DNA from: a virus
Taxonomy: Duplodnaviria; Heunggongvirae; Uroviricota; Caudoviricetes
IMG/VR virus record: IMGVR_UViG_3300025896_000023
Length of the DNA stretch: 64,000 nt
Direction: 5' to 3' (one strand)
The translations under genes were made by a program, and so were the position numbers. Below are positions 224-38,465 of this stretch, one piece after another (positions within the stretch are counted from its first letter, which is position 1; each line of letters starts with the position of its first letter). The notes below the pieces were generated by a model, which was given only the letters and a program-made list of their open reading frames with translations, was not told the DNA's origin and did no database searches.

Positions 224-964
224 ATGGCTAAAATATTTAAAGTCGGAGGTTGCATCAGAGATAAATTTCTTGGATTAGATTCTAAAGATATTGATTTTAC
301 CTTCGTATTAGAAGATACGAAAGGGTTTACTGTTGAAGATGGTTTTCAAATCATGACGAACTGGATGACAGACCAAGGGTTTGAAATATTCTTAAGTACT
401 CCAGATTGTTTTACAATTCGTGCCAAATTTCCAAAAGATCATCAGTTCGCTGGATTAGTTGCAGATTTTGTAATGGCAAGAAAAGAGGTTGGATATGTCG
501 AAGGAACCCGTAGGCCTATTTTGGAATTGGGTACTCTTGAAGATGATTTACTTCGTAGAGATTTTACTCTGAATGCATTAGCAGAAGATATTGATGGTAA
601 TCTTATTGATCTATTCGATGGAGTAGAGGACCTAAAGGTTGGAATATTGAGAACTCCAATGGATGCTAACATTACAATGATGGATGACCCATTACGTATC
701 TTAAGAGCCCTGAGATTTACTATCACTAAAGATTTTCAAATGCATGCTGATATTTGGGAAGCTATGAAACAACCAAGCATTCTTAAGAAGCTAGAGCAAA
801 CTGTAAGTCACGAAAGAATCAGAGAAGAACTACTTAAAATGTTTCAATTTAACACACCAAGAACATTTAGATTGTTAATGGATGTAGATGAAATTATCCC
901 TGGGTTCTTAGAATTGATTTTTAAAGATGGAATGTGGTTACAACCCACTACTAAAAAAATATAA
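224..964 (+). CDS. cca: CCA-adding tRNA nucleotidyltransferase, class II, minimal head-domain form
   Basis: N-terminal GGCIRDKFLGLDSKDIDF (GGxVRDxxLGxxxxDxD) and RRDFTLNAL (RRD motif) are seen in the sequence; 246 aa. Confidence 0.75.
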   Translation: MAKIFKVGGCIRDKFLGLDSKDIDFTFVLEDTKGFTVEDGFQIMTNWMTDQGFEIFLSTPDCFTIRAKFPKDHQFAGLVADFVMARKEVGYVEGTRRPILELGTLEDDLLRRDFTLNALAEDIDGNLIDLFDGVEDLKVGILRTPMDANITMMDDPLRILRALRFTITKDFQMHADIWEAMKQPSILKKLEQTVSHERIREELLKMFQFNTPRTFRLLMDVDEIIPGFLELIFKDGMWLQPTTKKI

Positions 965-9565: not shown

Positions 9566-10279
9566 ATGCATTTTAAAGATCCAATAATAGAGTCAGGCAT
9601 CCAAGATATTAAATATCTAGCACCAATTCCAATATATCAACATCAATTTGAAGATGATGATTTCAGTAATAGAGTTTATGCATTTGGGTTTGAAACCTTA
9701 AATGAAAAACAAAAACAAATGGGACAAGAACTTCCAGGAAGATTTGATGATGAGAGGCAAGAAACATTCCAAGTATGGTATGACAGAGCAGATCAATGGG
9801 TAGAGGAAAATGAATTACAACCAATTGGCAGCAGATTTTGGACACCTCCTAATGATTTTTTAGATATTGATAATGTGGATGTTCATATAATTAGGCAAAG
9901 AATTGAAAATGGATATTTACATTTATTGAATTCTCTTGGATATTCACATGAATCAACTCCAATAATTACTGAAAGTTGGATGCAATATTATGATCCATAT
10001 AGCGGAAGAGGACATAATGCACATAATCACTGTAGATGGAGTGCAAGTGAAGCAAAACCAATGATGTTTAGTGGAGGTTACTACCTATCAGATGGATTAC
10101 CAATTAAAGACCATCCATACTCTGGAGTATTTGCGTTTCATATTAGAGGTATGAAATATTATATAAGACCCAAAAAAGGAATGTTAATTATTTGGCCTTA
10201 TGATATTATTCATTCTGTTGAGCCTTTTTATGGAGCAGAGCACCGATGTGTAATTAACTTTAATATACAACTCAAGTAA
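9566..10279 (+). CDS. putative 2OG-Fe(II) oxygenase-like protein
   Basis: C-terminal GMLIIWPYDIIHSVEPFYGAEHRCVINFN resembles the distal His plus Arg strand of phage 2OG oxygenases; HNAHNH upstream. Confidence 0.4.
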   Translation: MHFKDPIIESGIQDIKYLAPIPIYQHQFEDDDFSNRVYAFGFETLNEKQKQMGQELPGRFDDERQETFQVWYDRADQWVEENELQPIGSRFWTPPNDFLDIDNVDVHIIRQRIENGYLHLLNSLGYSHESTPIITESWMQYYDPYSGRGHNAHNHCRWSASEAKPMMFSGGYYLSDGLPIKDHPYSGVFAFHIRGMKYYIRPKKGMLIIWPYDIIHSVEPFYGAEHRCVINFNIQLK

Positions 10280-10839
10280 TGGAAAATATAGGATATGATA
10301 TTTTCGTTTTTAGAAAAAGTATTCCTTTTCAAACAATAGAATTATGTAATACTATTAGAAATGAATCCAACTCTGATGGAAGAATCGATGCTAACGATAT
10401 TTTAATGGAAAGCTTTAATAGTTTTATTAAAGAATTATATAATGATGTGATTCTAGATTATTTAAAAATATATGATGTAGAGAACGGAATAGGTTATAAC
10501 TCAAGTATTGATACCGTTAATGAAATTAAGGAGTATGTTAGTCCATTATGGCGAGAAGTATTTTTATTAAAATATTCTGAAACATATCCCATCTCTTATG
10601 AAAAAAACGTGCATTGGGATTTTTCTATGTTTACTATTGTCGGATGTTTAAACGATGAATTTGAAGGAGGTGAACTTGAATTTCCTAGGCAAGAAATAAG
10701 TGTTTTATTAAAAAAAGGAGATATTGTGATTTTTCCAGGAGGGTTAACCCATCCGCATTTTGTGAATAAAGTTACCAAGGGAGAGAGATATGTTATCGTT
10801 GGTCAAACCCTATATCCTGGCTTAAATAAAATAAAATAA
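10279..10839 (+). CDS. 2OG-Fe(II) oxygenase (prolyl-4-hydroxylase-like)
   Basis: VHWD (HxD) ... GGELEFP ... GDIVIFPGGLTHPHFVNKVTKGERYVI (distal His, Arg). Confidence 0.55.
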   Translation: MENIGYDIFVFRKSIPFQTIELCNTIRNESNSDGRIDANDILMESFNSFIKELYNDVILDYLKIYDVENGIGYNSSIDTVNEIKEYVSPLWREVFLLKYSETYPISYEKNVHWDFSMFTIVGCLNDEFEGGELEFPRQEISVLLKKGDIVIFPGGLTHPHFVNKVTKGERYVIVGQTLYPGLNKIK

Positions 10840-11886
10840 ATGAAAGTATATTGTACATTACCATTTACCAGAATGAAAATAAATTCTGATGGAGAATATC
10901 ATTCATGTTGCCACCAGAATATACATTATGGAAATATAATAAAGGAGGATATTACAATAAAGGAAGCATTTGATAAAGACATTATCAAAGATATTCAAAA
11001 TTCTATTTTAGGAAATAATTTACACGATGCTTGTAATACCCCTAGGTGTCCATTTTATTCAAAACGAAATGAATTAGATACGCTATTCATGAACGATGTA
11101 GAATATACGGACCAACCTATTGATTTTGAACTTTCATTACCATCTTCGCATTGTAATATAGGAGGAACAGACCCTACACCTGATACTGCATGCCCAATGT
11201 GCCCTAGGGCATCTGTGTCTTTTATTGAGCATGAACCATCCATTGATTTAATAGAAATAGTATTGGATAAATTAAAACCTATTATGAATAAGGTTAAAAT
11301 ACTAAATATACAGGGAATCGCTGAACCGTTTTGGAAAGGAAAAGTATTTGAAATTTTAAATAAATTAGATTTTAAAAAATATAGAAATGTTATACATTTT
11401 TGGAGTTTTACAAATGGAACAGTATTTGGAGATAAAATACAAGATAAATTTATAGAAATGGTAGGATTTGCTAGTTTAGGATTTTCAATAGATGCAGCAA
11501 CACCCGAAACGTATATTAAAGTAAGAAAATTAAATTACTTTAAAACTATTGAGAGAAATTTAAAAAAATATTTCGAAAAAACAAAGAATCTTAAAAATGA
11601 AAATGGTTGGTTACATTCGTTTACGACATATAATATCAATATGATAAATGTGCATGAAATGGAACAAATGGTCAGGTGGTCACATGGGATAGGGGCAGAT
11701 AGAACAGAATTTACATTAACATTTATAAGTGCTCCTGAAATTCCAATAGGTACCGAAAATATATGTAATAAAGATAATTGGCATATATTTTGGGAAGGAC
11801 AACAAAGGGCGATGCATGTTGCAAAGGAATTAAATTATAGTGTAACATTTTATGTTCCATTTCATGGAGGATTTTTAAATAATTAA
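10840..11886 (+). CDS. Cys-rich hypothetical protein
   Basis: 348 aa; CTLPF...HSCCHQ, CNTPRCPF, ACPMCP; no CxxxCxxC radical-SAM motif. Confidence 0.45.
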   Translation: MKVYCTLPFTRMKINSDGEYHSCCHQNIHYGNIIKEDITIKEAFDKDIIKDIQNSILGNNLHDACNTPRCPFYSKRNELDTLFMNDVEYTDQPIDFELSLPSSHCNIGGTDPTPDTACPMCPRASVSFIEHEPSIDLIEIVLDKLKPIMNKVKILNIQGIAEPFWKGKVFEILNKLDFKKYRNVIHFWSFTNGTVFGDKIQDKFIEMVGFASLGFSIDAATPETYIKVRKLNYFKTIERNLKKYFEKTKNLKNENGWLHSFTTYNINMINVHEMEQMVRWSHGIGADRTEFTLTFISAPEIPIGTENICNKDNWHIFWEGQQRAMHVAKELNYSVTFYVPFHGGFLNN

Positions 11887-17282: not shown

Positions 17283-17316
17283 AAATAAGTATTAAAACAT
17301 TTTTTATATCGAAACT

Positions 17317-17354
17317 TTTAGTTATATTTACATATAAATTAAAACAAACATACA
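17317..17354 (+). promoter_or_regulatory. promoter-like module copy (variant TATATTTACATATAAATTAAAACAAACA)
   Basis: Upstream of Prs-like gene. Confidence 0.45.
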
Positions 17355-18233
17355 ATGATAATATTAGATTTAGTTAACCCGGAAAAATCGCAAATCAAGT
17401 ACAAAATTAGTCAATTCCCAGATGGTCAACAAACAGTAGACCTTACAGAATGGAATGACTTATTGAGATATACTGATGCTGTAAAAATTAGCTCACGTTT
17501 AAATAGTTTTAAAGATTTAGAATTAATTATTTGTGCAACCACTGCGATCAGAAATATTAAACCTACCAGAGAAATTATCCTTTACGTTCCTTATTTTGTA
17601 GGTGCTCGTTCAGATCGCAAATTTAGCGAAGGTGGAGTTAATTATCTAAAACAGGTAATTTGTCCAATTATTAATTCTTTAAATTTTATAACTGTAATTA
17701 CGTTAGATCCACACTCTGATGTATTGGAAGCATGCTTGAATAACTATGAAAAATTAGATAATCACATACTAGCAAAATATGCACTTTCAAATATAGATAA
17801 TAAAAAAGATGCTCAAGAAAGAATTTGTTTAGTAAGCCCAGATGCTGGAGCATATAAGAAAATCTTTGATGTTGCTAAAAAGTTTGGAATTCAAAATGTT
17901 GTTACTGCAAATAAAGTAAGAGACATGAAAACTGGTAATATTCTTAAGACCGAGGTTCCAAACCTACCAGGAATTGTTGGAGATGATTTACAATATGTAA
18001 TCATCGATGATATTTGCGATGGTGGTAGAACATTTAATGAACTAGCAAAGGCAATTAGAGAACAACGAAGTGATGCAAAGATCTATTTAGTAGTAACCCA
18101 TGGTATCTTTAGCGCTGGATTTAAAGAATTATCACAATACTTCGAAGGAATTTATACAACAAATAGTTATCGAGAAGTTGCAGATAATGAATATGAAGAA
18201 AAAACAAACACAATAGTATTTAAAGTAATATAA
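17355..18233 (+). CDS. ribose-phosphate pyrophosphokinase (Prs) family protein; candidate ADP-ribose pyrophosphokinase
   Basis: PRPP-binding loop VIIDDICDGGRT; SPDAGAYKKIFDVAKKFG; length 292 aa; directly downstream of a promoter module. Confidence 0.6.
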   Translation: MIILDLVNPEKSQIKYKISQFPDGQQTVDLTEWNDLLRYTDAVKISSRLNSFKDLELIICATTAIRNIKPTREIILYVPYFVGARSDRKFSEGGVNYLKQVICPIINSLNFITVITLDPHSDVLEACLNNYEKLDNHILAKYALSNIDNKKDAQERICLVSPDAGAYKKIFDVAKKFGIQNVVTANKVRDMKTGNILKTEVPNLPGIVGDDLQYVIIDDICDGGRTFNELAKAIREQRSDAKIYLVVTHGIFSAGFKELSQYFEGIYTTNSYREVADNEYEEKTNTIVFKVI

Positions 18234-18445
18234 TGTATACTATAGATTCATTAACAACATTAGGATATGTTATAGAAATTAGTTTGGATAGAACAAGTAC
18301 TCCTAAATTCGCGTTTGACATATGGAAATATGAACACTTTGGAAATTATGAACTAATTAAAGTCAGAGAATGGTATTTATACCGAACATGGCAAGAAGCA
18401 TTTGAAGCAGCAGTAGAAGAATTAAAACACTTAAATTTAATATAA
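18233..18445 (+). CDS. hypothetical protein
   Basis: 70 aa; ATGT overlap with Prs-like gene. Confidence 0.35.
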   Translation: MYTIDSLTTLGYVIEISLDRTSTPKFAFDIWKYEHFGNYELIKVREWYLYRTWQEAFEAAVEELKHLNLI

Positions 18446-18556
18446 AAATGAATAAAGAAATTAAAACAGAAACAACGGACCAATTAGTATTAGTTCATGA
18501 TGTAATTTTAGGCTCAAGATATGAGTTGCAATCGGTTGAAGTAGAGGCAGATCTAG

Positions 18557-19078
18557 GTGCTCCAGATGAAACTATTGATGAGCAATAGAGAATATCGAAT
18601 GTATGGCTTGGTACCTTATAACTTAAGCCCAATCCAACAAGGTATCCAATTTGGACATGCTGTGGTAGAATATGGAATTGAATTTATTGAAAACCAAGAA
18701 TACCAAGAATGGGCTAGAAGAGATAAAACTTTTATTATTCTAAACGGCGGTACTACTAATTCAAATACAATGAGATTAGGAACTCTTAACCAACATTATC
18801 ATGAATTAAATGACAATGGTATTAAAATTGGAGAATTTCATGAGCCAGATTTAGGAGATCAATTAACTGCAGTAGTTTTTATAGTTGATGATCGAGTATT
18901 TGACAAGGTAAATTGGCCAGACTTAGTTCCATTACAATTCAATAATGGATTTATGAATCCAGAAGACCTAGATGAGTACCGAAAAAATGAATTCGACGAA
19001 TGGAAGAAACAATTTGGAGATGATGCAGAGCAAATCGTATTCCTAAGATATTTTTTAAAAAACTTTAGATTAGCATAA
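18557..19078 (+). CDS. hypothetical protein, weak resemblance to PTH2-type peptidyl-tRNA hydrolase
   Basis: QQGIQFGHAVVEYG roughly matches the PTH2 AAQCxHA box; true start may be an internal Met. Confidence 0.3.
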   Translation: MLQMKLLMSNREYRMYGLVPYNLSPIQQGIQFGHAVVEYGIEFIENQEYQEWARRDKTFIILNGGTTNSNTMRLGTLNQHYHELNDNGIKIGEFHEPDLGDQLTAVVFIVDDRVFDKVNWPDLVPLQFNNGFMNPEDLDEYRKNEFDEWKKQFGDDAEQIVFLRYFLKNFRLA

Positions 19079-19079
19079 G

Positions 19080-19595
19080 ATGTATCAAGAAATAGAAGGT
19101 GATTTAATTGCTATGGCAAAACAAGGTAAGTTTGATGTAATTACACATGGTTGTAATTGTTTGTCAAATATGGGAGCAGGAATAGCACCTCAAATGGCAA
19201 AAGCATTTGGAGTTGATAAATTTGAAATGGAAACTTGGGGTGCAACAATCGAAAAACTAGGATGTATTGATTGGCAAACAGTAGTTCTTGGAGAAAATAC
19301 AATTTGGTCTTTAGAAGATTATAAGAACAATCGAGATGAACCAGAATTAGTAGTTGTGAATTCATATACACAATATAGATATGGTAAGAATCATAAAGAT
19401 GGAGTTGCTAAACCTATTGACTACGAAGCACTTACATTATGCATGCGTAAAATCAATAATAAATTTAATGGTAAACATATTGGACTTCCAAAGATTGGCG
19501 CCGGTTTGGCAGGTGGAGATTGGAATAGAATCAAACGTATTATTCAAACAGAATTAAAAGACATGAAAGTGTCAGTAATAATTTATAAACCATAG
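19080..19595 (+). CDS. Macro domain protein (ADP-ribose binding/hydrolysing)
   Basis: DVITHGCNCLSNMGAGIA matches the macro-domain nucleotide-binding loop. Confidence 0.6.
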   Translation: MYQEIEGDLIAMAKQGKFDVITHGCNCLSNMGAGIAPQMAKAFGVDKFEMETWGATIEKLGCIDWQTVVLGENTIWSLEDYKNNRDEPELVVVNSYTQYRYGKNHKDGVAKPIDYEALTLCMRKINNKFNGKHIGLPKIGAGLAGGDWNRIKRIIQTELKDMKVSVIIYKP

Positions 19596-19598
19596 AAA

Positions 19599-20084
19599 AT
19601 GAAAGTAACAGATAAACATGTATTTTTCTGGAATGGAATTTACTCACAATGGCATAAAGCACCAATGACAATTGACAAGATTGAATATAATTCTTGTGAA
19701 CAATACATGATGCATCAAAAGGCATTATTATTTGGAGATGAAGATATTGCAGAGCAAATTATGCAAGAAACGAATCCAAGAGAACAAAAGAAATTTGGCA
19801 GAATGATTAGAAACTTTGATAAAACTATTTGGGATAAAAATTGTTTGGCAATTGTTTATGAAGGAAACTTGGCAAAATTCAGACAAAATGCTGGATTAAG
19901 AGAAGAAATGTTAAATACTGGCGATCGTATCTTTGTAGAGGCTTCTCCATTAGATAATATTTGGGGTATTGGACTTGATGAAAATGCCGAAGGAATTGAT
20001 GATCCATCATATTGGTTAGGTTTAAATCTTTTAGGACAAGCATTAACTCTTGTAAAAAATCAAATTAAATCTGAAATAAGATGA
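19599..20084 (+). CDS. NADAR (YbiA-like) domain protein
   Basis: FFWNGIYSQWH...CEQYMMHQKALLFGD...NIWGIGLD signature. Confidence 0.65.
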   Translation: MKVTDKHVFFWNGIYSQWHKAPMTIDKIEYNSCEQYMMHQKALLFGDEDIAEQIMQETNPREQKKFGRMIRNFDKTIWDKNCLAIVYEGNLAKFRQNAGLREEMLNTGDRIFVEASPLDNIWGIGLDENAEGIDDPSYWLGLNLLGQALTLVKNQIKSEIR

Positions 20085-20365
20085 GACAATCAGGTAAAAC
20101 TACAAGATTAGTGGATGCTGCAGTTCAATATTTATTTGAACACGGATCTATTAGAATCTTAACAAACTCTGAAGTATTTGATAGAAATTCACTGAGAGGT
20201 TATAGACCAGAACAAGTCGATATGCTTTTAAAATTTATCGATCCAGATACTAGGCCAGATAATAGAGCACAACAGTATTTTATTGAAGCATTAGATAGAA
20301 GACTTGCAACCGAACATGGAGGAAGCACTGAAAGAATTAGTGCAACAGAATTTAAAGTAATTTAA
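20081..20365 (+). CDS. hypothetical protein
   Basis: 94 aa; 4-nt overlap. Confidence 0.4.
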   Translation: MRQSGKTTRLVDAAVQYLFEHGSIRILTNSEVFDRNSLRGYRPEQVDMLLKFIDPDTRPDNRAQQYFIEALDRRLATEHGGSTERISATEFKVI

Positions 20366-20517
20366 TATGAAAAGATTAGTAGAATTATTAGCACCATCGT
20401 ATTTAGGATTTGCTCTAGCCGCATTTGCGCATATCACATGGTATCAATGGGAATTTTATGCAATTATAGTTCCATTTTATATTTTAGTAAAAATAACGGA
20501 TTTTAATAAAGACGAAG

Positions 20518-21096
20518 ATGAGTAGAACAGAATTTCACACAGGAAAATTATATCCAGTCAAAATTGAAAATAGTCTGGAAGAAACTTGCAGAAGTATTGC
20601 AAAACGACATGATGTTGAACTAAGTGAAGATTGGCAAGAAGACTTTAGGGATGCTTTTGATGAGTATGCTACTAAGATAATAAGCCAACCCGAGGAGTAT
20701 TTTATTCATGGAGAAAATCTTTATAGAGTTATTGACCATATCGAATCAGACGATGATGAGTCCTTTATGAAACTTAGGCATAATGGAGATGGTAGTATTT
20801 CCTTTATTGGTCAATTCTATAATGGAGGTACATGTTTTTCCGAAATTTTAGAAGAATCATTAAATGATTTAAAACCAAGTTATCAAGTTCAGATTAAAGA
20901 AGCAGTTGACCATATTGTTGAAGTCCATGGAGTTGAACAACCTTTTACAATTCCAGGCGCTGGTAAATTAATCAAGGAATATATGAGCCTTGAAAAGGCT
21001 ATTGAATTATTTGAAGGTGCCAAGAATGAAGCTGCCGGAAATGCATTTAGATCTTCAGCGTATGAGGCAACACTAGAAACAATCTTAAAAGTATGA
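20518..21096 (+). CDS. hypothetical protein
   Basis: 192 aa acidic protein. Confidence 0.4.
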   Translation: MSRTEFHTGKLYPVKIENSLEETCRSIAKRHDVELSEDWQEDFRDAFDEYATKIISQPEEYFIHGENLYRVIDHIESDDDESFMKLRHNGDGSISFIGQFYNGGTCFSEILEESLNDLKPSYQVQIKEAVDHIVEVHGVEQPFTIPGAGKLIKEYMSLEKAIELFEGAKNEAAGNAFRSSAYEATLETILKV

Positions 21097-21274
21097 ACAA
21101 ATATAGAGTAGAATGTAGAATAGGTTCAAGCTGTACGATTAGAACAATTGAATGCAGAGAAATGACAATTAATGAAGGTTCATATTGTTTTTGGACCGGA
21201 GAATATGGAAAGACTAATAAATTAGTTTATGCATTTCCAATAATGAATTCCATAGTAGAAGGTATTCATGAAGA

Positions 21275-21356
21275 AAATTAACATAAAATTAACACTCGGG
21301 ATTTTCTAGTCTCGAGTTTTTTGTTTATATTTACATTATAATTAAAACAATAACAA
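21275..21356 (+). promoter_or_regulatory. class-B unit: AAAATTAACATAAAATTAACAC, terminator hairpin, TTTTTTGTTTATATTTACATTATAATTAAAACAA
   Basis: Upstream of Fpg/Nei-like gene. Confidence 0.45.
21295..21322 (+). terminator. rho-independent terminator
   Basis: CTCGGGA-TTTTCTAGT-CTCGAG then TTTTTTG. Confidence 0.5.
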
Positions 21357-22148
21357 ATGCCAGAATTAGCAGAACTTAGATTAACTTCAGAATATATTAA
21401 AACCGTTTCAAATGGTAGAGAATTTACACGAATAGAAAAAAGTCAAGCACATAAGGGTATTGAATTTTCAGCCCCATATCCTACATTTAAAATCAGTGCA
21501 AAAAGTAAAGGTAAGGAAATTGTTATGTATCTTTATCCGAATGAAGCAACACCAGTATATACTCCAATTCGAATGACAATGGGAATGTCAGGACATTTTC
21601 AACTCACCGAAACTGGTAAAGAAGCAAAGCATGCACATCTTAAATTTTATAGTACAGATGGTTATACATTGAGTTTTGTAGATGTAAGAAGATTTGGTAA
21701 ATGGAAATTAGGAGAAGAATGGTCAAGCAATAGAGGACCAGATCCAACTTTAGAATTTCAAAACTTTGTTAGAAATGTTAAAGAAAATTTACATAAAAAA
21801 GATTTTGACAAACCTATTTGCGAGGTCTTAATGAATCAAAAATATTTCAATGGTATTGGTAATTATTTACGTGCCGAGATATTATATAGAGTAGATGTAA
21901 ATCCATTTATCAGTGCAAGAGAAGCCTTACAAGGTAATCCAGAAATATATCAACTATGTAAATGGGCACCAATGCAGGCCTATAAATTAGGAGGTGGCCA
22001 ATTAAAGGATTGGGAAAATCCATTTGGTAAAGAATCTGAGATGAAATCATGGTCGGAATTTATGAGATGCTATAACAATCCAAAAATGAATAAAGTAGTA
22101 GATACAAATAAAAGAACCTTTTGGTTCGATCCTAAATGGAACAAATAA
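21357..22148 (+). CDS. Fpg/Nei-family DNA glycosylase/AP lyase, apparently zincless
   Basis: N-terminal MPELAELRL (Pro2-Glu3); H2TH-like FNGIGNYLRAEILYRVDVNPF; no CxxC...CxxC at the C-terminus. Confidence 0.55.
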   Translation: MPELAELRLTSEYIKTVSNGREFTRIEKSQAHKGIEFSAPYPTFKISAKSKGKEIVMYLYPNEATPVYTPIRMTMGMSGHFQLTETGKEAKHAHLKFYSTDGYTLSFVDVRRFGKWKLGEEWSSNRGPDPTLEFQNFVRNVKENLHKKDFDKPICEVLMNQKYFNGIGNYLRAEILYRVDVNPFISAREALQGNPEIYQLCKWAPMQAYKLGGGQLKDWENPFGKESEMKSWSEFMRCYNNPKMNKVVDTNKRTFWFDPKWNK

Positions 22149-22158
22149 CTTTTAAATT

Positions 22159-22407
22159 ATGACAGATTTACAAAAATGGGAAGCAGTTAATCAATGCGAA
22201 ACTGCAAAAGAATTAGAAACCCTAATTCTAGAGAATTTTTCAGATGGTGAAGGAAAGATCCAAGGTCGATCTAGAAAGTTCGATACCGTTGAAATGCTAG
22301 TTGGTTTAACAATGTTTATGAAGAATCAAATGCACCCTAATATTCTTACTAGAGAGTTTGGTATTCGTCAACAGGCAATTTATTTGAAATCTGTTGAAAC
22401 AAATTAA
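22159..22407 (+). CDS. hypothetical protein
   Basis: 82 aa. Confidence 0.35.
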   Translation: MTDLQKWEAVNQCETAKELETLILENFSDGEGKIQGRSRKFDTVEMLVGLTMFMKNQMHPNILTREFGIRQQAIYLKSVETN

Positions 22408-22471
22408 GTAATACTTATATAATAACCATAACCAGCATCCAACTAACGAAGGTTGCACAATACCATATATT

Positions 22472-23272
22472 ATGAAAAACGATGCATTAGGCGATCGCAT
22501 GAAAGAGTTCTACGAAGATAGAACCAGAATCAAACTTCCAAGAAGAACTTACACAATTATTCGAATTGATGGTAAGGCATTCCACACTTACACTAAAGGA
22601 TTAACAAGACCATTTGATGAGGGTCTAATTGAAGACATGAATGCAACTACTGCATATTTATGTAAAAACATCCAAGGCGCTAAATTCGGTTATGTGCAAT
22701 CAGATGAGATTAGTTTAGTCTTAACAGACTTTGATGACTTAGGAACTCATGCTTGGTTCGACAACAACTTACAGAAAATGGTAAGTGTTGCTGCTTCTAT
22801 GGCAACTGCAGAATTCAATAAACTTAGGTTAATGCGATTCATGAAAGATAGCATGATCTTTTTAGAACCTGAAGATATTGGAAAATTCAAAATGGCTGAG
22901 TTCGACGCTAGAGCATTTCAAATTCCATTTATCGATGAGGTAGAAAACTATTTTATTTGGAGACAACAGGATGCTGTAAGAAATTCAATCTCTTCAGTTG
23001 CACAAAGTCTTTATAGTACTACAGAATTACATGGTAAAAAAACAAGTGATATGCAAGAATTGATCTTCCAGAAGGGAATTAACTGGAATGATTATGATTT
23101 TCGTTTGAAACGAGGCGCAATAATCGGAAAGGTAGAAGTTGTAACTACAACTAGCGATGTTAATTACACGAGAAATAAATGGCAAGTTATTGAAACTCCA
23201 ACATTTACTCAAGATAGATTTTTTATTAAAGGATTACTAAACACTAAAAAGAAAGAAAATGAATTGGTTTAA
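22472..23272 (+). CDS. Thg1-like 3'-5' nucleotidyltransferase (tRNA-His guanylyltransferase family)
   Basis: DRMKEFYED...LPRRTYTIIRIDGKAFHTYTKGLTRPFDEGL...YVQSDEISLVL matches Thg1 catalytic core blocks. Confidence 0.65.
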   Translation: MKNDALGDRMKEFYEDRTRIKLPRRTYTIIRIDGKAFHTYTKGLTRPFDEGLIEDMNATTAYLCKNIQGAKFGYVQSDEISLVLTDFDDLGTHAWFDNNLQKMVSVAASMATAEFNKLRLMRFMKDSMIFLEPEDIGKFKMAEFDARAFQIPFIDEVENYFIWRQQDAVRNSISSVAQSLYSTTELHGKKTSDMQELIFQKGINWNDYDFRLKRGAIIGKVEVVTTTSDVNYTRNKWQVIETPTFTQDRFFIKGLLNTKKKENELV

Positions 23273-23774
23273 AAGATTATTTGGAATTAAAGAAGTAGAA
23301 GTTCAACTCATGGAAAGAAAGGAAACCTATAATCCAATCAGTGGCACTTCTAAAACAAATGAGATAGATGGCCATGAAATTGCCAAACAAAGACTTATTA
23401 AGGAATTAAAAGGTTCTTTAGGAACAAAGGGTACTCCTGGAATAGGCGGAATACAATCTCAAGTAAATACTCAAACCAGAGTAATAGGTGCTAATGATTC
23501 TAATAATGACTACTTATCATTAATGGCAATTGCATCTATGGTAAATTCCAGTGATAATTCAAATACAATTGAAGAAACTACAGTCGGTACTGGATTCCAT
23601 GATGGAGGGTTTGGTGGTGGAGATTTCTCAGGTAGTGGTTCAGGAGGTTCATGGGAAGATAATAGCTCATCTAGCAATTCAAGTTCTTATGATTCTGGAA
23701 GCTCATATGATTCTAGTTCATCGAGTGATTCAAGTTCTTATGACTCAGGTTCATCTAGTTCCAGTGATTATTAG
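23259..23774 (+). CDS. protein with Ser/Gly/Asp low-complexity tail
   Basis: C-terminal SSYDSGSS repeats. Confidence 0.4.
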   Translation: MNWFKRLFGIKEVEVQLMERKETYNPISGTSKTNEIDGHEIAKQRLIKELKGSLGTKGTPGIGGIQSQVNTQTRVIGANDSNNDYLSLMAIASMVNSSDNSNTIEETTVGTGFHDGGFGGGDFSGSGSGGSWEDNSSSSNSSSYDSGSSYDSSSSSDSSSYDSGSSSSSDY

Positions 23775-23868
23775 AATTGTTAATAACTTTTTGAAAAGAA
23801 TTCACTAAAAGTTTTCAATATATCGAATATTATAGTTATATTTACATTATAATTAAAACAAACAAAAT
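23775..23868 (+). promoter_or_regulatory. full composite module copy
   Basis: AATTGTTAATAACTTTTTG ... GTTTTCAATAT ... TATATTTACATTATAATTAAAACAAACAAA. Confidence 0.55.
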
Positions 23869-24090
23869 ATGAAAACACTTTTAACAATTACAGTTCTAGG
23901 AATAGGATTATTATTTTTAGCAATCTATTATGAACAAGGAAGAGATCCTTATGAAGAAGGAATGCATTTGGATTATAAAATAGAAATAGTAAATGGCTTT
24001 GTATATAAGAGCCTAGATCGACATAGGGGAACAATACAAGTACTGAATTCCGATGGAACTCCATTGCGAGATGGTAAAAAAATATACTAA
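23869..24090 (+). CDS. small membrane protein
   Basis: 73 aa with one TM; follows a full promoter module. Confidence 0.4.
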   Translation: MKTLLTITVLGIGLLFLAIYYEQGRDPYEEGMHLDYKIEIVNGFVYKSLDRHRGTIQVLNSDGTPLRDGKKIY

Positions 24091-24122
24091 ATAATTCACA
24101 ATATAATTAAAAACAAACATAT

Positions 24123-25688
24123 ATGAACCCATTATTTTTAACAGACGGTTACAAAACAGGACATCACCAACAATATCCAAAAGGAACTACGTTGGTTTAT
24201 TCTAACTTCACTCCTCGTAGTAACAAGTATGCTCCTAAAGGTTGCGATCAATTAGTATCATTTGGTCAACAAATGGTAGTTAAACAAATTCACGAAGCAT
24301 TCGATAAAGATTTCTTTAGTAAACATAAAGACGAAGTTTGTGGAGAAATGAAACGCGAATTGTCAATGTACTTAAATACTGACTATGATGTTAGTCACTT
24401 TGAAGCTTTGCATGATTTAGGTTATTTGCCTATCATTGTTAAGTCAATTAAAGAAGGTAGTTTAGTACCAATGAGAGTTCCAGTATTGACAATTTACAAT
24501 ACACATCCAGATTTCTATTGGATTACAAACTATTTAGAAACAGTTATTTCTAACTTATTGTGGAAACCAATGACTTCTGCAACTATGGCGCATTCTTATC
24601 GTAAGTTATTTACTTCATGGCAAGAAAAAACCGATGCTGAAAAAGGTTGGTTCGTAGATTGGCAAGCACATGATTTCTCAATGAGAGGTTTAGATTCTAT
24701 TGATGCTACTATTAGTTCAGGTTTGGGTCACTTAACAAGTTTCTCAGGTTCAGACAGTTTACCAGCAATCTTTGGAGCAAGAAAATTCTATAATGAAACT
24801 GGATTTGTGTCCGGTTCGGTAAATGCAACTGAACATTCAGTTATGTGTGCTGGTAGTAAAGAAGATGAGGTTGGAACATTTAGAAACTTGATGGAAACAT
24901 ATCCAACTGGAATTCTTTCAATAGTCAGCGACACATGGGATCTTTGGAAAGTTTGTACCAGTCACTTAGTTATCTTAAAAGAAGAGATTTTAGCAAGAGA
25001 AGGTAAAGTAGTTATTAGACCTGACTCTGGAGATCCAGTCGATATTATTTGTGGATTAAATACACAACCAAAGGGTGTTAAAGGAACTAATGGACCTGGA
25101 CCAGAAGTTACTACAAATGCAGAATTGGACAAAGAACATCCTGCACAAAAAGGTGTTATTGAATTATTATGGGATGTATTTGGTGGAGAAATCAACGAAC
25201 AAGGTTATAAAGTATTAGATCCTCACATTGGAGCAATATATGGAGATTCAATCACATTAGACCGTGCTGAACAAATCTTTACAAGATTAGAAGCAAAGGG
25301 ATTCGCAAGTACAAACATAGTTTTAGGCGTAGGTTCATTTACATATCAATTTAACACAAGAGATACATTCGGGTTTGCAATGAAAGCCACTTATGTTGAA
25401 ATAAAAGAACATTTTAGAACAGTTAAAGACGAGAATGGTAATTATACACACTCTGAAGAAATCATTATAGGTCGTGAAATCTTCAAAGATCCAATCACCG
25501 ATGATGGTATTAAGAAATCTGCAAAAGGTTTATTAAGAGTTGTTGGAGATGAAACATGTATGTTATTAGAAGATCAATGTACATGGGACGATGAAGCTAC
25601 TGGTAAATTAAAGGTAATTTATAATAATGGTCAATTTGAAAACCAAACTACTTTGACAGAAATTCGTGAACGTTTAACAAATTCATAA
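24123..25688 (+). CDS. nicotinamide phosphoribosyltransferase (NAMPT/NadV) family; candidate nicotinamide ADP-ribose transferase
   Basis: MNPLFLTDGYKTGHHQQYP N-terminus and overall 521-aa NAMPT architecture. Confidence 0.8.
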   Translation: MNPLFLTDGYKTGHHQQYPKGTTLVYSNFTPRSNKYAPKGCDQLVSFGQQMVVKQIHEAFDKDFFSKHKDEVCGEMKRELSMYLNTDYDVSHFEALHDLGYLPIIVKSIKEGSLVPMRVPVLTIYNTHPDFYWITNYLETVISNLLWKPMTSATMAHSYRKLFTSWQEKTDAEKGWFVDWQAHDFSMRGLDSIDATISSGLGHLTSFSGSDSLPAIFGARKFYNETGFVSGSVNATEHSVMCAGSKEDEVGTFRNLMETYPTGILSIVSDTWDLWKVCTSHLVILKEEILAREGKVVIRPDSGDPVDIICGLNTQPKGVKGTNGPGPEVTTNAELDKEHPAQKGVIELLWDVFGGEINEQGYKVLDPHIGAIYGDSITLDRAEQIFTRLEAKGFASTNIVLGVGSFTYQFNTRDTFGFAMKATYVEIKEHFRTVKDENGNYTHSEEIIIGREIFKDPITDDGIKKSAKGLLRVVGDETCMLLEDQCTWDDEATGKLKVIYNNGQFENQTTLTEIRERLTNS

Positions 25689-25964: not shown

Positions 25965-26441
25965 ATGGAAGTAATTAAACCAGAACCAAGAAACACATTC
26001 TATTTAGATAAACATACAAAAATATTTTTAGCAGGTTCTATAGAAATGGGAAAGGCAGAAGATTGGCAATCCATGATTCCTACTATATTTGAAAATAGAC
26101 AAGAACTTGTTTTCTTTAATCCTCGCAGAGATGATTGGGATAGTTCATGGGAACAAAATGAATCAAATCCTCAGTTTAACTATCAAGTTAATTGGGAATT
26201 AGATCATCTTGATGAAGCTGACTTAATTTTCATGTACTTCTCACCAGAAACCAAGAGTCCAATTAGTTTATTAGAACTTGGATTATATGCAAATTCTGGC
26301 AAAATGATAGTATGTTGCCCCGATACTTTTTATCGTAAAGGTAATGTAGATATTGTATGTAGCAAGTTTAATGTTCCTGTTTATAATACAATAGGATCAG
26401 CAATTGGTAGATTAAGAACAGAATTAAAAGATATAAAATAA
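25965..26441 (+). CDS. nucleoside 2-deoxyribosyltransferase-like (Rcl/DNPH1-like fold) protein
   Basis: KIFLAGSIEMGKAEDWQ...FNPRRDDW...ADLIFMYF...LLELGLYANSGKMIVC pattern. Confidence 0.45.
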   Translation: MEVIKPEPRNTFYLDKHTKIFLAGSIEMGKAEDWQSMIPTIFENRQELVFFNPRRDDWDSSWEQNESNPQFNYQVNWELDHLDEADLIFMYFSPETKSPISLLELGLYANSGKMIVCCPDTFYRKGNVDIVCSKFNVPVYNTIGSAIGRLRTELKDIK

Positions 26442-37683: not shown

Positions 37684-37756
37684 GGGGCTATGGTGAAATT
37701 GGTTATCACGCTGCCCTTGCACGGCTGTATTCAGAGTTCGAATCTCTGTAGCTCCA
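37684..37756 (+). tRNA. tRNA-Ala (anticodon TGC)
   Basis: Hand fold: acceptor GGGGCTA/TAGCTCC with G3-U70, D stem GTGA/TCAC, anticodon loop CTTGCAC, T arm CAGAG-TTCGAAT-CTCTG. Confidence 0.8.
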
Positions 37757-37940
37757 CTATATTTTTAAAGGATACGTTCAGCAAATTAAAAAACTTGATC
37801 TGTAAATTCAACAAAAAGTTATCCTGTAAAATATTAAAATGCTCGGGTGGTGAAACTAGTAGACACGCAATTAAATAATATTTAAAATTGTAAAAATATA
37901 GCACAGACGTAGATATATATAATAAACAAGTACTAATATT

Positions 37941-38375
37941 ATGAAAAGAACAGAAGCCGAAATCAGAGAAGCTATTGAAAATAGCAATTCAATGTGTCAA
38001 GCTGCAGATAAACTTGGACTAGCCTTTTCAACGTTTAAAACATACGCACAAAATATTGGATTGTATAGTCCAATTGATAATAAGGCAGGTAAAGGAACTT
38101 ATAAAGTTAAGAAAAAACTAGAAGATGTCTTTACTGGAAAAGAACATTTAGTTACTAGTCAATTAAGAAATAGATTAGTAAGAGAAGGTTATAAGGAATA
38201 TAAGTGCGAACATTGTGGAATTGATGAATGGGAAGGAATAAGGATTGGATTGGAACTCGATCATATTTCGGGAGTTAGATCAGATAACTCTTTAGAAAAT
38301 TTAAGACTTCTTTGTCCTAATTGCCATAGTCAAACCCATACATTTAGAGGTAGAAATATTGCTAAAAATGTTTAA
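37941..38375 (+). CDS. HNH homing endonuclease with N-terminal HTH, embedded in the tRNA cluster
   Basis: CEHCGIDEWEG...LELDHISGVRSDNSLENLRLLCPNCHSQTH; stop is 3 nt before tRNA-Leu. Confidence 0.65.
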   Translation: MKRTEAEIREAIENSNSMCQAADKLGLAFSTFKTYAQNIGLYSPIDNKAGKGTYKVKKKLEDVFTGKEHLVTSQLRNRLVREGYKEYKCEHCGIDEWEGIRIGLELDHISGVRSDNSLENLRLLCPNCHSQTHTFRGRNIAKNV

Positions 38376-38377
38376 TC

Positions 38378-38457
38378 GCTCGGGTGATGAAATTGGTAAA
38401 CATGCACGACTTAAAATCGTGTGCGAAAGCTTGCGGGTTCGATTCCCGCCCCGAGTA
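38378..38457 (+). tRNA. tRNA-Leu (anticodon TAA), type II
   Basis: Acceptor GCTCGGG/CCCGAGT, anticodon arm CACGA-CTTAAAA-TCGTG, long variable arm, T arm GCGGG-TTCGATT-CCCGC. Confidence 0.7.
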
Positions 38458-38465
38458 CTATAAAT

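What the first reader, a model, noticed from the sequence alone, without database searches (positions are those of the whole stretch)
19080..20084. Adjacent Macro and NADAR genes: a possible two-enzyme eraser of DNA or nucleotide ADP-ribosylation
Seen in the sequence: the Macro (GCNCLSNMGAGIA loop) and NADAR (NIWGIGLD) ORFs are separated by 3 nt. Established knowledge: macrodomains of the DarG type remove ADP-ribose from thymidine in DNA, and NADAR enzymes remove ADP-ribose from guanosine. DarT toxins use exactly these modifications in antiphage defence. Inference: a phage carrying both erasers back to back could neutralise both DarT classes. Alternatively the pair processes ADP-ribose derivatives for the NAD pathway above.
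Basis: partly seen in the sequence, partly recalled or inferred. Interest (0 to 1): 0.55.

Follow-up and report, generated by a model that had tools for sequence, protein, structure and literature searches.

The report
Macro and NADAR genes inside NARP1
Two real, neighbouring phage genes for ADP-ribose-releasing enzymes sit inside a known phage operon that rebuilds NAD+ after bacterial immune attack, so they are most likely accessory counter-defence enzymes of kinds described in 2024-2026 rather than a new paired DNA eraser.

Summary
A 171-aa macrodomain ORF (19080-19595) and a 161-aa NADAR ORF (19599-20084) lie 3 nt apart, are conserved under purifying selection, and recur identically in nine metagenome contigs.

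The pair sits between an Adps-like gene (17355-18233) and a Namat gene (24123-25688) that carries the published Namat signature GSFTYQFNTRD. This is the phage NAD+ reconstitution pathway NARP1, stretched here by 13 inserted ORFs.

The macrodomain's closest characterised relative is Adpp of Vibrio phage Gary (32% identity), the ADPR-1''-phosphate phosphatase of 'NARP1-AP'. It has Gln98 where DarG, TARG1 and AdfM have the catalytic lysine, and shows no significant similarity to the phage anti-DarT2 macrodomain AdfM.

The NADAR is YbiA-type with all five catalytic residues. Related phage NADARs are known anti-DarT1 enzymes (AdfN).

The adjacency is not a conserved unit. Of 44 related NARP1 loci, 23 carry the macrodomain and only 7 the NADAR, with variable spacing and order.

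Verdict: new member of known kinds. One open point remains: this NADAR clade is strongly linked to Namat, so it may feed ADP-ribose to NARP1.

The parts
17355..18233 (+). Adps-like gene (Prs homologue; ADP-ribose pyrophosphokinase of NARP1)
   Evidence: phrog_619 E 7e-69. TIGR01251 85 bits, below the 113 cut-off for true Prs. 32% identity, E 1e-35 to the Vibrio phage Gary gene that lies at the Adps position of the experimentally tested Adps-phosphatase-Namat operon. An Adps homologue accompanies the Namat homologue in 44/44 related loci.
18233..18445 (+). 70-aa ORF of unknown function, conserved after Adps in many relatives
   Evidence: tblastn hits at 70-84% identity in the same position in many loci. 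No Pfam or PHROG hit.
18596..19078 (+). PTH2-fold (peptidyl-tRNA-hydrolase-2-like) protein, 1 nt upstream of the Macro. The ORF may start at GTG 18557.
   Evidence: phrog_3668 'hydrolase' E 3.5e-17. AF2 pLDDT 77.5. Foldseek top hits are PTH2 proteins MJ0051, Bit1 and AF2095 at weak E values of 0.01-0.13. Found in the flanks of 20/28 Macro-seeded contigs, and directly upstream of the Macro in the gene orders shown.
19080..19595 (+). Macrodomain protein, Gln-type ALC1/TARG1-like class; Adpp-like candidate ADPR-1''-phosphate phosphatase
   Evidence: 32% identity over the full length to Gary Adpp. N26, Q98 and GAGLAGGDW motifs are shared with Adpp, BT1257 and SCO6735.
19599..20084 (+). NADAR protein, YbiA-type (Glu) subfamily; ADP-ribosyl N-glycohydrolase
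   Evidence: PF08719 E 8e-50. PDB 8bau PnNADAR E 1e-12. E34, K41, E114 and D119 are invariant and W122 nearly invariant across relatives; they correspond to PnNADAR E43, E125, D130 and W133 and to AdfN E36/K43.
21294..21317 (+). Terminator-like hairpin plus T-run. Possible end of the Adps-to-g21093 transcription unit.
   Evidence: This is a consensus match only, and the number of terminator-like sites in the region is not above the shuffled expectation.
24123..25688 (+). Namat gene (nicotinamide ADP-ribose transferase of NARP1)
   Evidence: PF04095 and PF18127. Contains GSFTYQFNTRD, which fits the published Namat-specific motif GSXΦXΦXΦTRD. 42% identity, E 5e-125 to Gary Namat.
25965..26441 (+). 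PF15891 nucleoside 2-deoxyribosyltransferase-like gene, a frequent companion of Namat
   Evidence: PF15891 E 2.4e-36. Present within the flanks of Namat in 32/44 related loci.

Best explanation
The two ORFs are separate accessory genes. [quoted passage not shown]

The Macro protein is an Adpp-type enzyme. It removes the 1''-phosphate from ADPR-1''-phosphate, which is the product of RES-type NAD+ phosphorolysis by defence systems such as aRES. This yields ADP-ribose, which Adps pyrophosphorylates and Namat joins to nicotinamide to remake NAD+ (the NARP1-AP pathway).

The NADAR protein is a catalytically intact YbiA-type N-glycohydrolase that cuts the C1''-N bond of base-linked ADP-ribose. Its most likely target is guanine-ADP-ribose placed on phage DNA by DarT1-type toxins, as shown for other phage NADARs (AdfN, NADAR-Bas32, NADAR-Bas60). 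Its product is again free ADP-ribose.

Shown here: gene reality, family assignment, catalytic-residue conservation, the Namat signature, and synteny statistics. Inferred: the substrates and the in vivo roles.
For: (1) The locus is NARP1.
- The NAMPT-like gene carries GSFTYQFNTRD, matching the Namat-specific selectivity-clamp motif (PMC12774641). The validated Gary Namat has GSFTYQYVTRD.
- The Prs-like gene falls below the true-Prs cut-off and is 32% identical to the Gary Adps-position gene.
- An Adps homologue accompanies Namat in 44/44 related loci.
- No NMNAT was found among the window ORFs scanned. The only nucleotidyltransferase-like ORF is of the sugar-phosphate type.

(2) The Macro is Adpp-like.
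- Identity to Gary Adpp is 32%, 70 bits, E 1e-20 over the full length, and 29% to a second NARP1-associated Macro.
- This compares with 28% to BT1257, 23% to TARG1 and nothing significant to AdfM.
- Adpp was shown to convert ADPR-1P to ADPR and to be needed against aRES (10.64898/2026.01.28.702374).
- The Macro lies between Adps and Namat in 18/18 contigs that hold both. In L020/L021 it is followed directly by Namat.

(3) The NADAR is intact.
- E34, K41, E114 and D119 are invariant and W122 is nearly invariant. They correspond to residues that contact ADPr or are needed for catalysis in PnNADAR, E. coli C7 NADAR and AdfN.
- All phage NADARs tested rescued phages from DarTG1.
- Vequintavirinae phages, the subfamily that includes NADAR-Bas60, encode a relative about 40% identical (phage 4MG, 41%).

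(4) The genes are independent modules.
- Of 44 Namat-seeded loci, 20 are core only, 17 add the Macro, 6 add the Macro and NADAR, and 1 adds the NADAR alone.
- The Adps-Namat gap ranges from 65 nt to 9.4 kb.
Against:
- The Macro family is far more widespread (about 2,500-2,700 phage records) than NARP1 (859 pathways in 20,185 genomes). It occurs without adjacent NARP1 genes in phAPEC8 and Cellulophaga phages, so Adpp activity may not be its only role.
- Its closest solved relatives, BT1257 and SCO6735, belong to a Gln-type subclass, and SCO6735 efficiently cleaves thymidine-ADPr on DNA. The fold search does not separate Poa1p, DarG, TARG1 and SCO6735.
- The residues mutated in Adpp are shown only in a figure and could not be checked.
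- In this window the Macro is the fourth gene after Adps and Namat is at least 14 genes downstream. This is outside the published operational definitions of within 2 genes and within 10 genes.
- For the NADAR, YbiA-type enzymes cleave G-ADPr in vitro, but K-12 YbiA did not rescue DarT1 toxicity in vivo.
- Co-location with NARP1 may only reflect clustering of counter-defence genes.
Confidence: 0.55

Rival explanations
1. The pair is a two-enzyme DNA de-ADP-ribosylation kit: the Macro removes thymidine-ADPr (anti-DarT2, like DarG2 or AdfM) and the NADAR removes guanine-ADPr (anti-DarT1, like AdfN).
For: - Both activities now have phage precedents: AdfN (PMC11257639) and AdfM (PMC13309987).
- The Macro's best PDB sequence hits are BT1257 and SCO6735.
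- SCO6735 has Gln at the catalytic-Lys position, as here. It cleaves DarT-made thymidine-ADPr in vitro and in cells, and that Gln is essential.
- The Macro gives weak hits to DarG models (NCBIfam 35 bits, PADLOC 34.7 bits).
- N26, the equivalent of DarG N22, is conserved.
Against: - There is no significant similarity to AdfM (E 0.22).
- The catalytic Lys is absent (Q98) and the TARG1 Asp is absent (A144).
- The DarG model score is far below the cut-off of 250, and there is no DarT-binding domain.
- The closest characterised homologue is the phosphatase Adpp.
- The Macro is positionally locked into NARP1 (18/18).
- The NADAR is absent from about 75-84% of the related Macro or NARP1 loci, and where present its spacing and order vary. 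Selection therefore does not act on the pair as a unit.
Confidence: 0.15
2. The NADAR is a dedicated NARP1 'feeder', analogous to Adpp and RyDEP. It hydrolyses a soluble or macromolecular N-glycosidic ADP-ribose conjugate made by a host defence enzyme, and the released ADPR is rebuilt into NAD+.
For: - Of 80 NADAR-seeded viral loci, a NAMPT-like gene lies within 10 kb in 26/30 (at least 60% identity), 7/21 (50-60%) and 10/29 (40-50%), often 21-133 nt away.
- Almost all of these carry the Namat motif; two are Nampt-type.
- NARP1 occurs in only about 4% of phage genomes, so this is a strong enrichment.
- The NADAR lies between Adps and Namat in 19 of 22 contigs holding both, and occurs with NARP1 but without the Macro in L035 and L221.
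- There is precedent for ADPR-releasing accessories next to NARP1: Adpp and RyDEP.
- Iyer et al. 2022 predicted that phage NADARs act on soluble ADPr derivatives and noted their neighbourhoods with NAD+ salvage genes.
Against: - No substrate is known.
- Close cultured relatives have a NADAR with no NARP1 nearby: Vibrio phage phiKT1024 and Vequintavirinae phage 4MG.
- Only 7/44 NARP1 loci of this clade carry a NADAR.
- The association may reflect a shared counter-defence island.
- The contig counts include near-identical contigs and are not independent lineages.
Confidence: 0.25
3. The Macro, and perhaps the NADAR, clean up by-products of phage RNA repair. The route would run from ADPr-1'',2''-cyclic phosphate made by a KptA/Tpt1-type enzyme, through cREC or 2H, to ADPR-1''P, and then through a Poa1p-like Macro to ADPR.
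For: - Poa1p, the yeast tRNA-splicing ADPR-1''P phosphatase, is the closest homologue with a known function that HHpred finds for the Adpp family. It also appears among the sequence and fold hits here.
- The window carries an RNA-repair-like kit: a cREC_REC domain (1518-1922), a CCA-adding-type nucleotidyltransferase (224-964), Thg1-like (22472-23272), HAD_SAK_2 (49036-49605), a PTH2-fold protein and 5 tRNAs.
- Iyer 2022 links Macro, NADAR and cREC to RNA repair.
Against: - No KptA/Tpt1 or RNA ligase was detected among the scanned ORFs of the window.
- The cREC gene is 17 kb away.
- Synteny ties the Macro to Adps and Namat, not to Thg1, which is present in only 11/28 Macro-seeded contigs.
Confidence: 0.08
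4. The NADAR is a YbiA-type N-glycosidase for reactive riboflavin-biosynthesis intermediates, as its best curated model names it.
For: TIGR02464 'riboflavin biosynthesis intermediates N-glycosidase' scores 149.9 bits, above its cut-off of 73.7. Many phage homologues are annotated 'GTP cyclohydrolase II' for this reason.
Against: - No riboflavin genes are nearby.
- YbiA-subfamily NADARs (PnNADAR, K-12 YbiA) hydrolyse guanine-ADPr.
- The phage context is NAD+/ADPR metabolism.
Confidence: 0.03

Closest known systems
Adpp, the Macro-domain ADPR-1''-phosphate phosphatase of NARP1-AP (Vibrio phage Gary KNV71_gp137; Osterman et al., bioRxiv 2026, 10.64898/2026.01.28.702374)
   Same: Full-length homology (32% identity, E 1e-20). 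Shared HxCNC...MGxGIAP, NxYxQY and GxGLAGGDW motifs. Encoded on the same strand between an Adps and a Namat gene.
   Different: The Gary operon is a compact three-gene unit, Adps-Adpp-Namat. Here three ORFs separate Adps from the Macro and nine more, plus the NADAR, separate the Macro from Namat. The window protein has an extra insertion of about 15-20 residues (roughly residues 64-88, a predicted beta-hairpin). Activity is untested.
AdfN and other phage NADARs (T4 gp30.3, NADAR-Bas32, NADAR-Bas60; Johannesman et al. 2024, PMC11257639)
   Same: An orphan phage NADAR with the conserved Glu/Lys pair (E34/K41, equivalent to AdfN E36/K43). A phage of the same subfamily as Bas60 (Vequintavirinae, phage 4MG) encodes a homologue 41% identical to it.
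   Different: It is not the T4 gp30.3 type, which has His at the third catalytic position; here that position is Glu114. It is embedded in a NARP1 locus rather than among early or replication genes. Activity against DarT1 is untested.
SCO6735 / BT1257 subclass of ALC1-like (TARG1-like) macrodomains (PMC9411070)
   Same: These are the best solved-structure sequence matches (BT1257 E 3e-10). Gln replaces the catalytic Lys of DarG and TARG1, and the GCGLAGG loop is shared.
   Different: SCO6735 is a bacterial DNA and protein de-ADP-ribosylase and DarT antitoxin. The window protein is a phage gene in an NAD+ salvage context and is more similar to Adpp.
AdfM, the chimallivirus DarG2-like macrodomain (PhiKZ gp104; PMC13309987) and DarG2
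   Same: Macrodomain fold, and the conserved Asn near the N-terminus (N26 here; N22 in DarG2, N23 in AdfM).
   Different: No significant sequence similarity (E 0.22). The catalytic Lys is replaced by Gln98. There is no phage-nucleus context and no DarT-binding domain.
Macro-NADAR co-occurrence and NAD+-salvage neighbourhoods in large phages (Iyer, Burroughs, Anantharaman & Aravind 2022, PMC9503650)
   Same: That survey reported Macro, NADAR, SLOG and Nudix genes co-occurring more often than chance in DNA viruses. It also reported tandem Macro-NADAR proteins and NADAR genes next to NadV-type genes. The window fits all of this and also has a SLOG/LOG-like gene at 40662-41315.
   Different: The survey predates NARP1, so the neighbouring 'NadV' genes were read as classical salvage. 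Here they carry the Namat signature.

Membership tests
Macrodomain superfamily | Macro fold and sequence profile match | tested here: met
   Pfam PF01661 is below its cut-off (19.9 against 22 bits). Supporting evidence: phrog_335 8e-43, PDB macrodomain hits, and an AF2 model with Foldseek probability 1.00 to Poa1p, DarG, TARG1, BT1257 and viral macrodomains.
Adpp / NARP1-AP | Homology to the characterised Adpp (Vibrio phage Gary) and to Poa1p | tested here: met
   32% identity, 70 bits, E 1e-20 over the full length. Poa1p is hit at E 5e-4 with the single sequence and 2.6e-5 with the profile.
Adpp / NARP1-AP | Encoded in or next to a NARP1 operon. The published screen required the Macro within two genes of the Adps/Namat pair. 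| tested here: inconclusive
   The Macro lies between Adps and Namat, but it is the fourth gene after Adps and Namat is at least 14 genes downstream. In relatives the Macro is always between the two (18/18) and sometimes directly abuts Namat (L020/L021).
Adpp / NARP1-AP | ADPR-1''-phosphate to ADPR phosphatase activity, and a requirement for it in overcoming aRES | not testable with these tools
   Needs LC-MS with purified protein and phage challenge assays. The residues mutated in Adpp are marked only in a figure.
NARP1 | Namat with the selectivity-clamp helix motif GSXΦXΦXΦTRD | tested here: met
   GSFTYQFNTRD in window 24123-25688.
NARP1 | An Adps-clade Prs homologue near Namat. The published rule is within 10 genes. 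| tested here: inconclusive
   An Adps-like gene is present on the same strand 5.9 kb upstream, with 13 ORFs between, which exceeds the 10-gene rule. Its score is below the Prs cut-off. It is 32% identical to the Gary Adps-position gene. Relatives pair the two genes in 44/44 loci. No phylogeny against true Prs was made.
DarG2 / AdfM-type anti-DarT2 macrodomain | Catalytic lysine (DarG K80, AdfM K78) | tested here: not met
   Gln98 occupies the aligned position (NSYTQ, against MFPTK in AdfM and LITKK in TARG1). The TARG1 sequence was recalled from memory; the two stretches aligned in the PDB search agree with it.
DarG2 / AdfM-type anti-DarT2 macrodomain | Sequence membership (DarG equivalog model, or similarity to AdfM) | tested here: not met
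   NF048014 scores 35.2 bits against a cut-off of 250, covering the macro part only. PADLOC DarG scores 34.7 bits. BLASTP against PhiKZ gp104 gives E 0.22.
DarG2 / AdfM-type anti-DarT2 macrodomain | Hydrolysis of thymidine-linked ADPr on ssDNA | not testable with these tools
   This cannot be excluded from sequence, because the Gln-type SCO6735 has this activity.
NADAR superfamily (PF08719) | Profile match and catalytic Glu/Lys pair | tested here: met
   PF08719 E 8e-50. E34 and K41 are invariant, equivalent to AdfN E36/K43 and C7 NADAR E88/K95.
YbiA subfamily of NADAR | Glutamate at the position of PnNADAR E125 | tested here: met
   VE114ASPLD119NIW122 aligns with YE125ASRHD130AIW133. TIGR02464 scores above its cut-off.
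DarG1 (BC4488, DarT1-associated) NADAR | Asp two residues before the conserved Glu (C7 D171), an N-terminal extension, and an adjacent DarT1 gene | tested here: not met
   Phe112 is at the -2 position. The protein is 161 aa with no extension, against 229-234 aa for DarG1. No ART gene was found among the scanned window ORFs.
T4 gp30.3-type AdfN | Histidine at the third catalytic position | tested here: not met
   Glu114 is at that position.

The most novel reading that the evidence does not exclude
This NADAR clade may be a third kind of NARP1 'feeder' enzyme, after the phosphatase Adpp and the O-glycosidase RyDEP. As an N-glycosidase, it would convert an N-linked ADP-ribose product of host immunity into free ADP-ribose that Adps and Namat rebuild into NAD+. 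Candidate substrates are base-ADPr on nucleic acids or nucleotides, or a soluble N-glycosidic signal such as a cADPR isomer or His-ADPR. The Adps-Namat intergenic space would then be a hot spot that collects enzymes matching the different ways bacteria break or divert NAD+.
Probability: 0.25. Interest if true: 0.65.

Novelty: new member of a known kind. Interest (0 to 1): 0.33.

Why it matters
If the assignments hold, this uncultured large phage (the exact Macro protein occurs on contigs up to 236 kb) carries an unusually expanded NAD+ counter-defence locus: NARP1, an Adpp-type phosphatase and a NADAR, with a PTH2-fold gene and a PF15891 gene as further conserved companions.

Three practical points follow.
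- Published rules for calling NARP1 and NARP1-AP (within 10 genes, within 2 genes) would miss split loci like this one.
- The space between Adps and Namat behaves as an accessory-gene hot spot. It could be mined for further enzymes that salvage ADP-ribose from non-canonical NAD+ breakdown products.
- The strong Namat linkage of one NADAR clade gives a concrete, testable lead on what non-DarT-associated NADARs do. The NADAR literature explicitly calls that question open.

The specific claim of a paired DarT1/DarT2 eraser would add little, because both activities are already documented separately in phages.

Tried and rejected
- Megablast of 17300-21300 against 50,697 phage records found no match, so no close cultured relative exists.
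- Foldseek of the Macro model against the PDB did not discriminate between Poa1p, DarG, TARG1, SCO6735 and viral macrodomains. All scored E about 1e-5 to 1e-6 with TM 0.5-0.6, so the fold cannot settle the substrate.
- I looked for an NMNAT that would indicate NARP2. The only nucleotidyltransferase-like ORF (60729-61136) matches sugar-phosphate or glycerol-phosphate nucleotidyltransferases instead. Rejected.
- I looked for KptA/Tpt1, ARTs or DarT in the window ORFs scanned with Pfam. None was found. ORFs under about 130 aa were mostly not scanned, and the rest of the phage genome is outside the window.
- The promoter scan gave counts no higher than shuffled sequence (63 against 58.6 ± 7.5), so nothing can be said about promoters.
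- I checked whether cultured relatives keep the pair. The Cellulophaga phage Macro is at the genome start with no NADAR or NARP1 nearby. The Vibrio phage phiKT1024 and phage 4MG NADARs have no Macro or NARP1 nearby. The phAPEC8 Macro has no NARP1 nearby.
- A PDB sequence search with the PTH2-like protein gave no hit. Only the fold search gave weak PTH2 matches.
- I could not obtain the Bas60, Bas32 or T4 AdfN sequences for a NADAR tree, because the accessions are only in a supplement. The subfamily was assigned from the catalytic residues instead.
Full report
**1. Observation**

The two ORFs are exactly where the finding says.
- ORF 19080-19595 (171 aa) contains ...THGCNCLSNMGAGIAPQ...
- ORF 19599-20084 (161 aa) contains ...DNIWGIGLDE...
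- The spacer after the TAG stop is the three bases AAA.

The NADAR assignment is very strong: PF08719 E 8e-50, TIGR02464 149.9 bits against a cut-off of 73.7, and PDB 8bau, the Phytophthora NADAR, at E 1e-12.

The Macro assignment is below Pfam's own threshold (19.9 against 22 bits). Other evidence secures it:
- phrog_335 at 8e-43
- sequence hits to the solved macrodomains BT1257 (3e-10), SCO6735 (7e-7), Poa1p, TARG1 and DarG
- an AlphaFold2 model (pLDDT 74.7, pTM 0.77) whose Foldseek hits are macrodomains or designed proteins built on that fold

Both ORFs are real genes.
- Against relatives of 83-92% protein identity, nucleotide differences pile up at third codon positions, e.g. 20/6/52 for the Macro and 30/17/86 for the NADAR.
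- The exact Macro protein occurs on nine metagenome contigs. The four displayed show the same Macro-3 nt-NADAR layout.

**2. Context: the pair lies inside a NARP1 locus**

All genes in the region are on the + strand. Upstream, at 17355-18233, is a Prs homologue.
- phrog_619 E 7e-69.
- It scores only 85 bits on TIGR01251, below the cut-off of 113 for true Prs.

Downstream, at 24123-25688, is a NAMPT-family gene. Its sequence contains GSFTYQFNTRD. A 2026 structural study defined GSXΦXΦXΦTRD, with aromatic X residues, as the signature that separates Namat from Nampt (PMC12774641). Namat is the ADPR-PP-using enzyme of NAD+ reconstitution pathway 1. The experimentally validated Namat of Vibrio phage Gary reads GSFTYQYVTRD.

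The window's two proteins are 32% and 42% identical to the two genes flanking Adpp in the tested Gary operon, annotated as ribose-phosphate pyrophosphokinase and nicotinamide phosphoribosyl transferase.

I took 44 viral contigs seeded with the window's Namat that had enough flank. An Adps homologue was present in all 44.

No NMNAT was found in the window. The one cytidylyltransferase-like ORF is of the sugar-phosphate type. The pathway is therefore NARP1, not NARP2.

Here the two core genes are 5.9 kb and 13 ORFs apart. In core-only relatives they are 65-90 nt apart.

**3. The Macro**

The Sorek laboratory reported in January 2026 that 15% of NARP1 operons carry a Macro-domain gene (10.64898/2026.01.28.702374).
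- The closest homologue with a known function is yeast Poa1p.
- The gene was named Adpp. It dephosphorylates ADPR-1''-phosphate to ADPR.
- ADPR-1''-phosphate is the product of RES-domain NAD+ phosphorolysis by the aRES defence system.
- Removing the phosphate lets NARP1 work against aRES.

I took the Gary Adpp sequence from that paper's Table S1. Pairwise comparisons with the window Macro:

| Comparator | Identity | Score |
|---|---|---|
| Gary Adpp (full length) | 32% | 70 bits, E 1e-20 |
| A second NARP1-associated Macro | 29% | 59 bits |
| BT1257 | 28% | 56 bits |
| TARG1 | 23% | 27 bits |
| PhiKZ gp104 (AdfM) | none significant | E 0.22 |

AdfM is the recently described phage anti-DarT2 macrodomain.

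In the alignment, the catalytic lysine of DarG (K80), TARG1 (K84) and AdfM (K78) is Gln98 in the window protein. It is likewise Gln in Adpp and BT1257, and SCO6735 has Gln85 at that position. TARG1's Asp125 is Ala144. The curated DarG model scores 35 bits against a cut-off of 250.

Synteny agrees with the Adpp reading. In 28 Macro-seeded viral contigs, 18 hold both Adps and Namat, and in all 18 the Macro lies between them. In L020/L021 the order is Adps-x-PTH2-like-Macro-Namat.

I therefore assign the Macro to the Adpp type. Two caveats apply.
- SCO6735 is of the same Gln subclass, and it does cleave thymidine-ADPr made by DarT, with that Gln essential (PMC9411070). The sequence alone cannot exclude DNA activity.
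- This Macro family is present in about 2,500-2,700 phage records, far more than carry NARP1. It occurs without NARP1 neighbours in phAPEC8 and Cellulophaga phages.

**4. The NADAR**

E34, K41, E114 and D119 are invariant, and W122 nearly so, in an alignment reaching down to 44% identity. They correspond to the following published residues:
- PnNADAR E43, E125, D130 and W133
- the Glu/Lys pair mutated in AdfN (E36, K43)
- E. coli C7 NADAR E88 and K95

The third catalytic position is Glu. That places the protein in the YbiA subfamily, not the DarT1-associated BC4488 type (Asp) and not the T4 gp30.3 type (His).

What is known about such enzymes:
- YbiA-subfamily enzymes hydrolyse guanine-ADPr in vitro and cytidine-ADPr.
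- All phage NADARs tested so far countered DarTG1. These were T4 AdfN and the unrelated NADAR-Bas32 and NADAR-Bas60 (PMC11257639).
- Homologues about 35-45% identical occur in many large myoviruses, including Vequintavirinae, the subfamily of Bas60.

Anti-DarT1 activity is therefore the default expectation. It is not guaranteed, because K-12 YbiA did not rescue DarT1 toxicity in vivo.

**5. Is the pair a unit?**

No. The counts from the three seeded sets are as follows.

Namat-seeded, 44 loci:

| Content | Loci |
|---|---|
| Core only (Adps + Namat) | 20 |
| Plus Macro | 17 |
| Plus Macro and NADAR | 6 |
| Plus NADAR only | 1 |

Macro-seeded, 28 contigs: the NADAR occurs in 7 and abuts the Macro in 2.

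NADAR-seeded, 34 contigs: the Macro is within 8 kb in 24. Of those:
- 7 are directly adjacent
- 7 have a short gap (60-700 nt, room for about one small ORF)
- 10 are 0.9-3.2 kb away
- the order is reversed in 2

The closest relatives of the window (89-91% identity) have a 921-nt insertion between the two genes.

The Macro's more constant neighbour is the upstream gene at 18596-19078, which is 1 nt away. It occurs in 20/28 contigs. Its model gives weak but consistent PTH2 (peptidyl-tRNA hydrolase 2) fold matches.

These counts are of contigs. Some are near-identical, so they overstate the number of independent lineages.

**6. What remains interesting**

The NADAR clade is strongly linked to NARP1. 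In 80 NADAR-seeded loci, a NAMPT-family gene lies within 10 kb as follows:

| NADAR identity to the window | Loci with NAMPT-family gene within 10 kb |
|---|---|
| at least 60% | 26/30 |
| 50-60% | 7/21 |
| 40-50% | 10/29 |

The gene is often only 21-133 nt away. Nearly all carry the Namat motif. NARP1 is present in only about 4% of phage genomes.

Both known NARP1 accessories, Adpp and the 2'/3'cADPR glycosidase RyDEP, work by producing free ADPR for Adps. A NADAR also releases ADPR. A feeder role for the NADAR is therefore a reasonable, untested hypothesis.

A full-text search for 'NADAR' together with 'NARP1' found only one paper, which mentions the NADAR in passing. Iyer et al. 2022 had already noted the following (PMC9503650):
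- Macro/NADAR co-occurrence
- tandem Macro-NADAR fusions
- NADAR genes beside 'NadV' genes
- a prediction that phage NADARs act on soluble ADPr substrates

Against a dedicated feeder role, cultured relatives carry this NADAR away from any NARP1, and only 7/44 NARP1 loci of this clade have it.

**7. Verdict**

The headline interpretation, a dual DarT eraser, is not the best reading.

Each component has a published counterpart:
- NARP1 (2024)
- Adpp / NARP1-AP (2026)
- phage NADAR / AdfN (2024)
- Macro-NADAR co-occurrence (2022)

This is a new member of known kinds in an uncultured large phage. It has an unusually expanded locus and one open lead, the NADAR-Namat linkage.

Noticed in passing
window 18596-19078 (ORF may start at GTG 18557): A PTH2-fold (peptidyl-tRNA hydrolase 2-like) protein ends 1 nt before the Macro. 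It is found with the Macro in 20/28 Macro-seeded contigs, so it is a more constant partner of the Macro than the NADAR. It has no Pfam or PDB sequence hit, only phrog_3668 'hydrolase' and weak Foldseek matches to MJ0051, Bit1 and AF2095. Its role next to Adps and the Macro is unexplained.
   Followed up: partly
window 25965-26441: A PF15891 (nucleoside 2-deoxyribosyltransferase-like) gene lies just after Namat. A homologue is within the flanks of Namat in 32/44 related loci, including loci with only the NARP1 core. The NARP1 papers read here did not mention it, as far as my term searches showed.
   Followed up: partly
window 17355-25688: Adps and Namat are separated by 13 ORFs and 5.9 kb here, against 65-90 nt in core-only relatives. 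The intergenic space acts as an accessory-gene hot spot. This locus would fail the published 'within 10 genes' and 'within 2 genes' rules for NARP1 and its Macro.
   Followed up: yes
window 21357-22148: An Fpg/Nei-family DNA glycosylase with a Neil1-type DNA-binding domain (PF01149, PF09292, PF06831) has no homologue in any of the 62 related viral loci examined. It looks like an insertion private to this phage.
   Followed up: partly
window 224-964, 1518-1922, 22472-23272, 49036-49605, 37684-39271: An RNA-repair-like set is scattered through the window: a CCA-adding/poly(A)-polymerase-type nucleotidyltransferase, a cREC_REC 'cyclic-phosphate processing' domain protein, a Thg1-like tRNA-His guanylyltransferase, a HAD_SAK_2 domain protein and five tRNA genes. 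No KptA or RNA ligase was seen in the ORFs scanned.
   Followed up: partly
window 40662-41315: A SLOG/LOG-family protein (PF03641, PF18306; TIGR00730 159 bits). This domain was reported to co-occur with Macro and NADAR in DNA viruses.
   Followed up: no
window 19599-20084 and 17355-18233: The NADAR matches the PADLOC candidate-defence component PDC-M42C over its full length (149 bits). It also matches NCBIfam's 'DS32_2 NADAR family anti-phage protein' weakly, and the Adps-like protein weakly matches 'DS32_1 phosphoribosyltransferase-like anti-phage protein'. Bacteria may therefore use a PRTase-plus-NADAR pair on the defence side.
   Followed up: no
window 9566-11886 and 58967-60163: Two 2OG-Fe(II) oxygenase genes are followed by a radical-SAM/SPASM gene. 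Separately, a 398-aa thymidylate-synthase-family protein matches a 266-position profile over residues 9-336, so it carries a large insertion. Either might relate to nucleotide or DNA modification.
   Followed up: no
L111 and L142 (viral contigs): Two distant NADAR relatives sit beside NAMPT-family genes with the Nampt-type sequence GGGLLQK.NRD instead of the Namat motif. The NADAR is thus occasionally linked to the classical (NARP2-like) enzyme as well.
   Followed up: no
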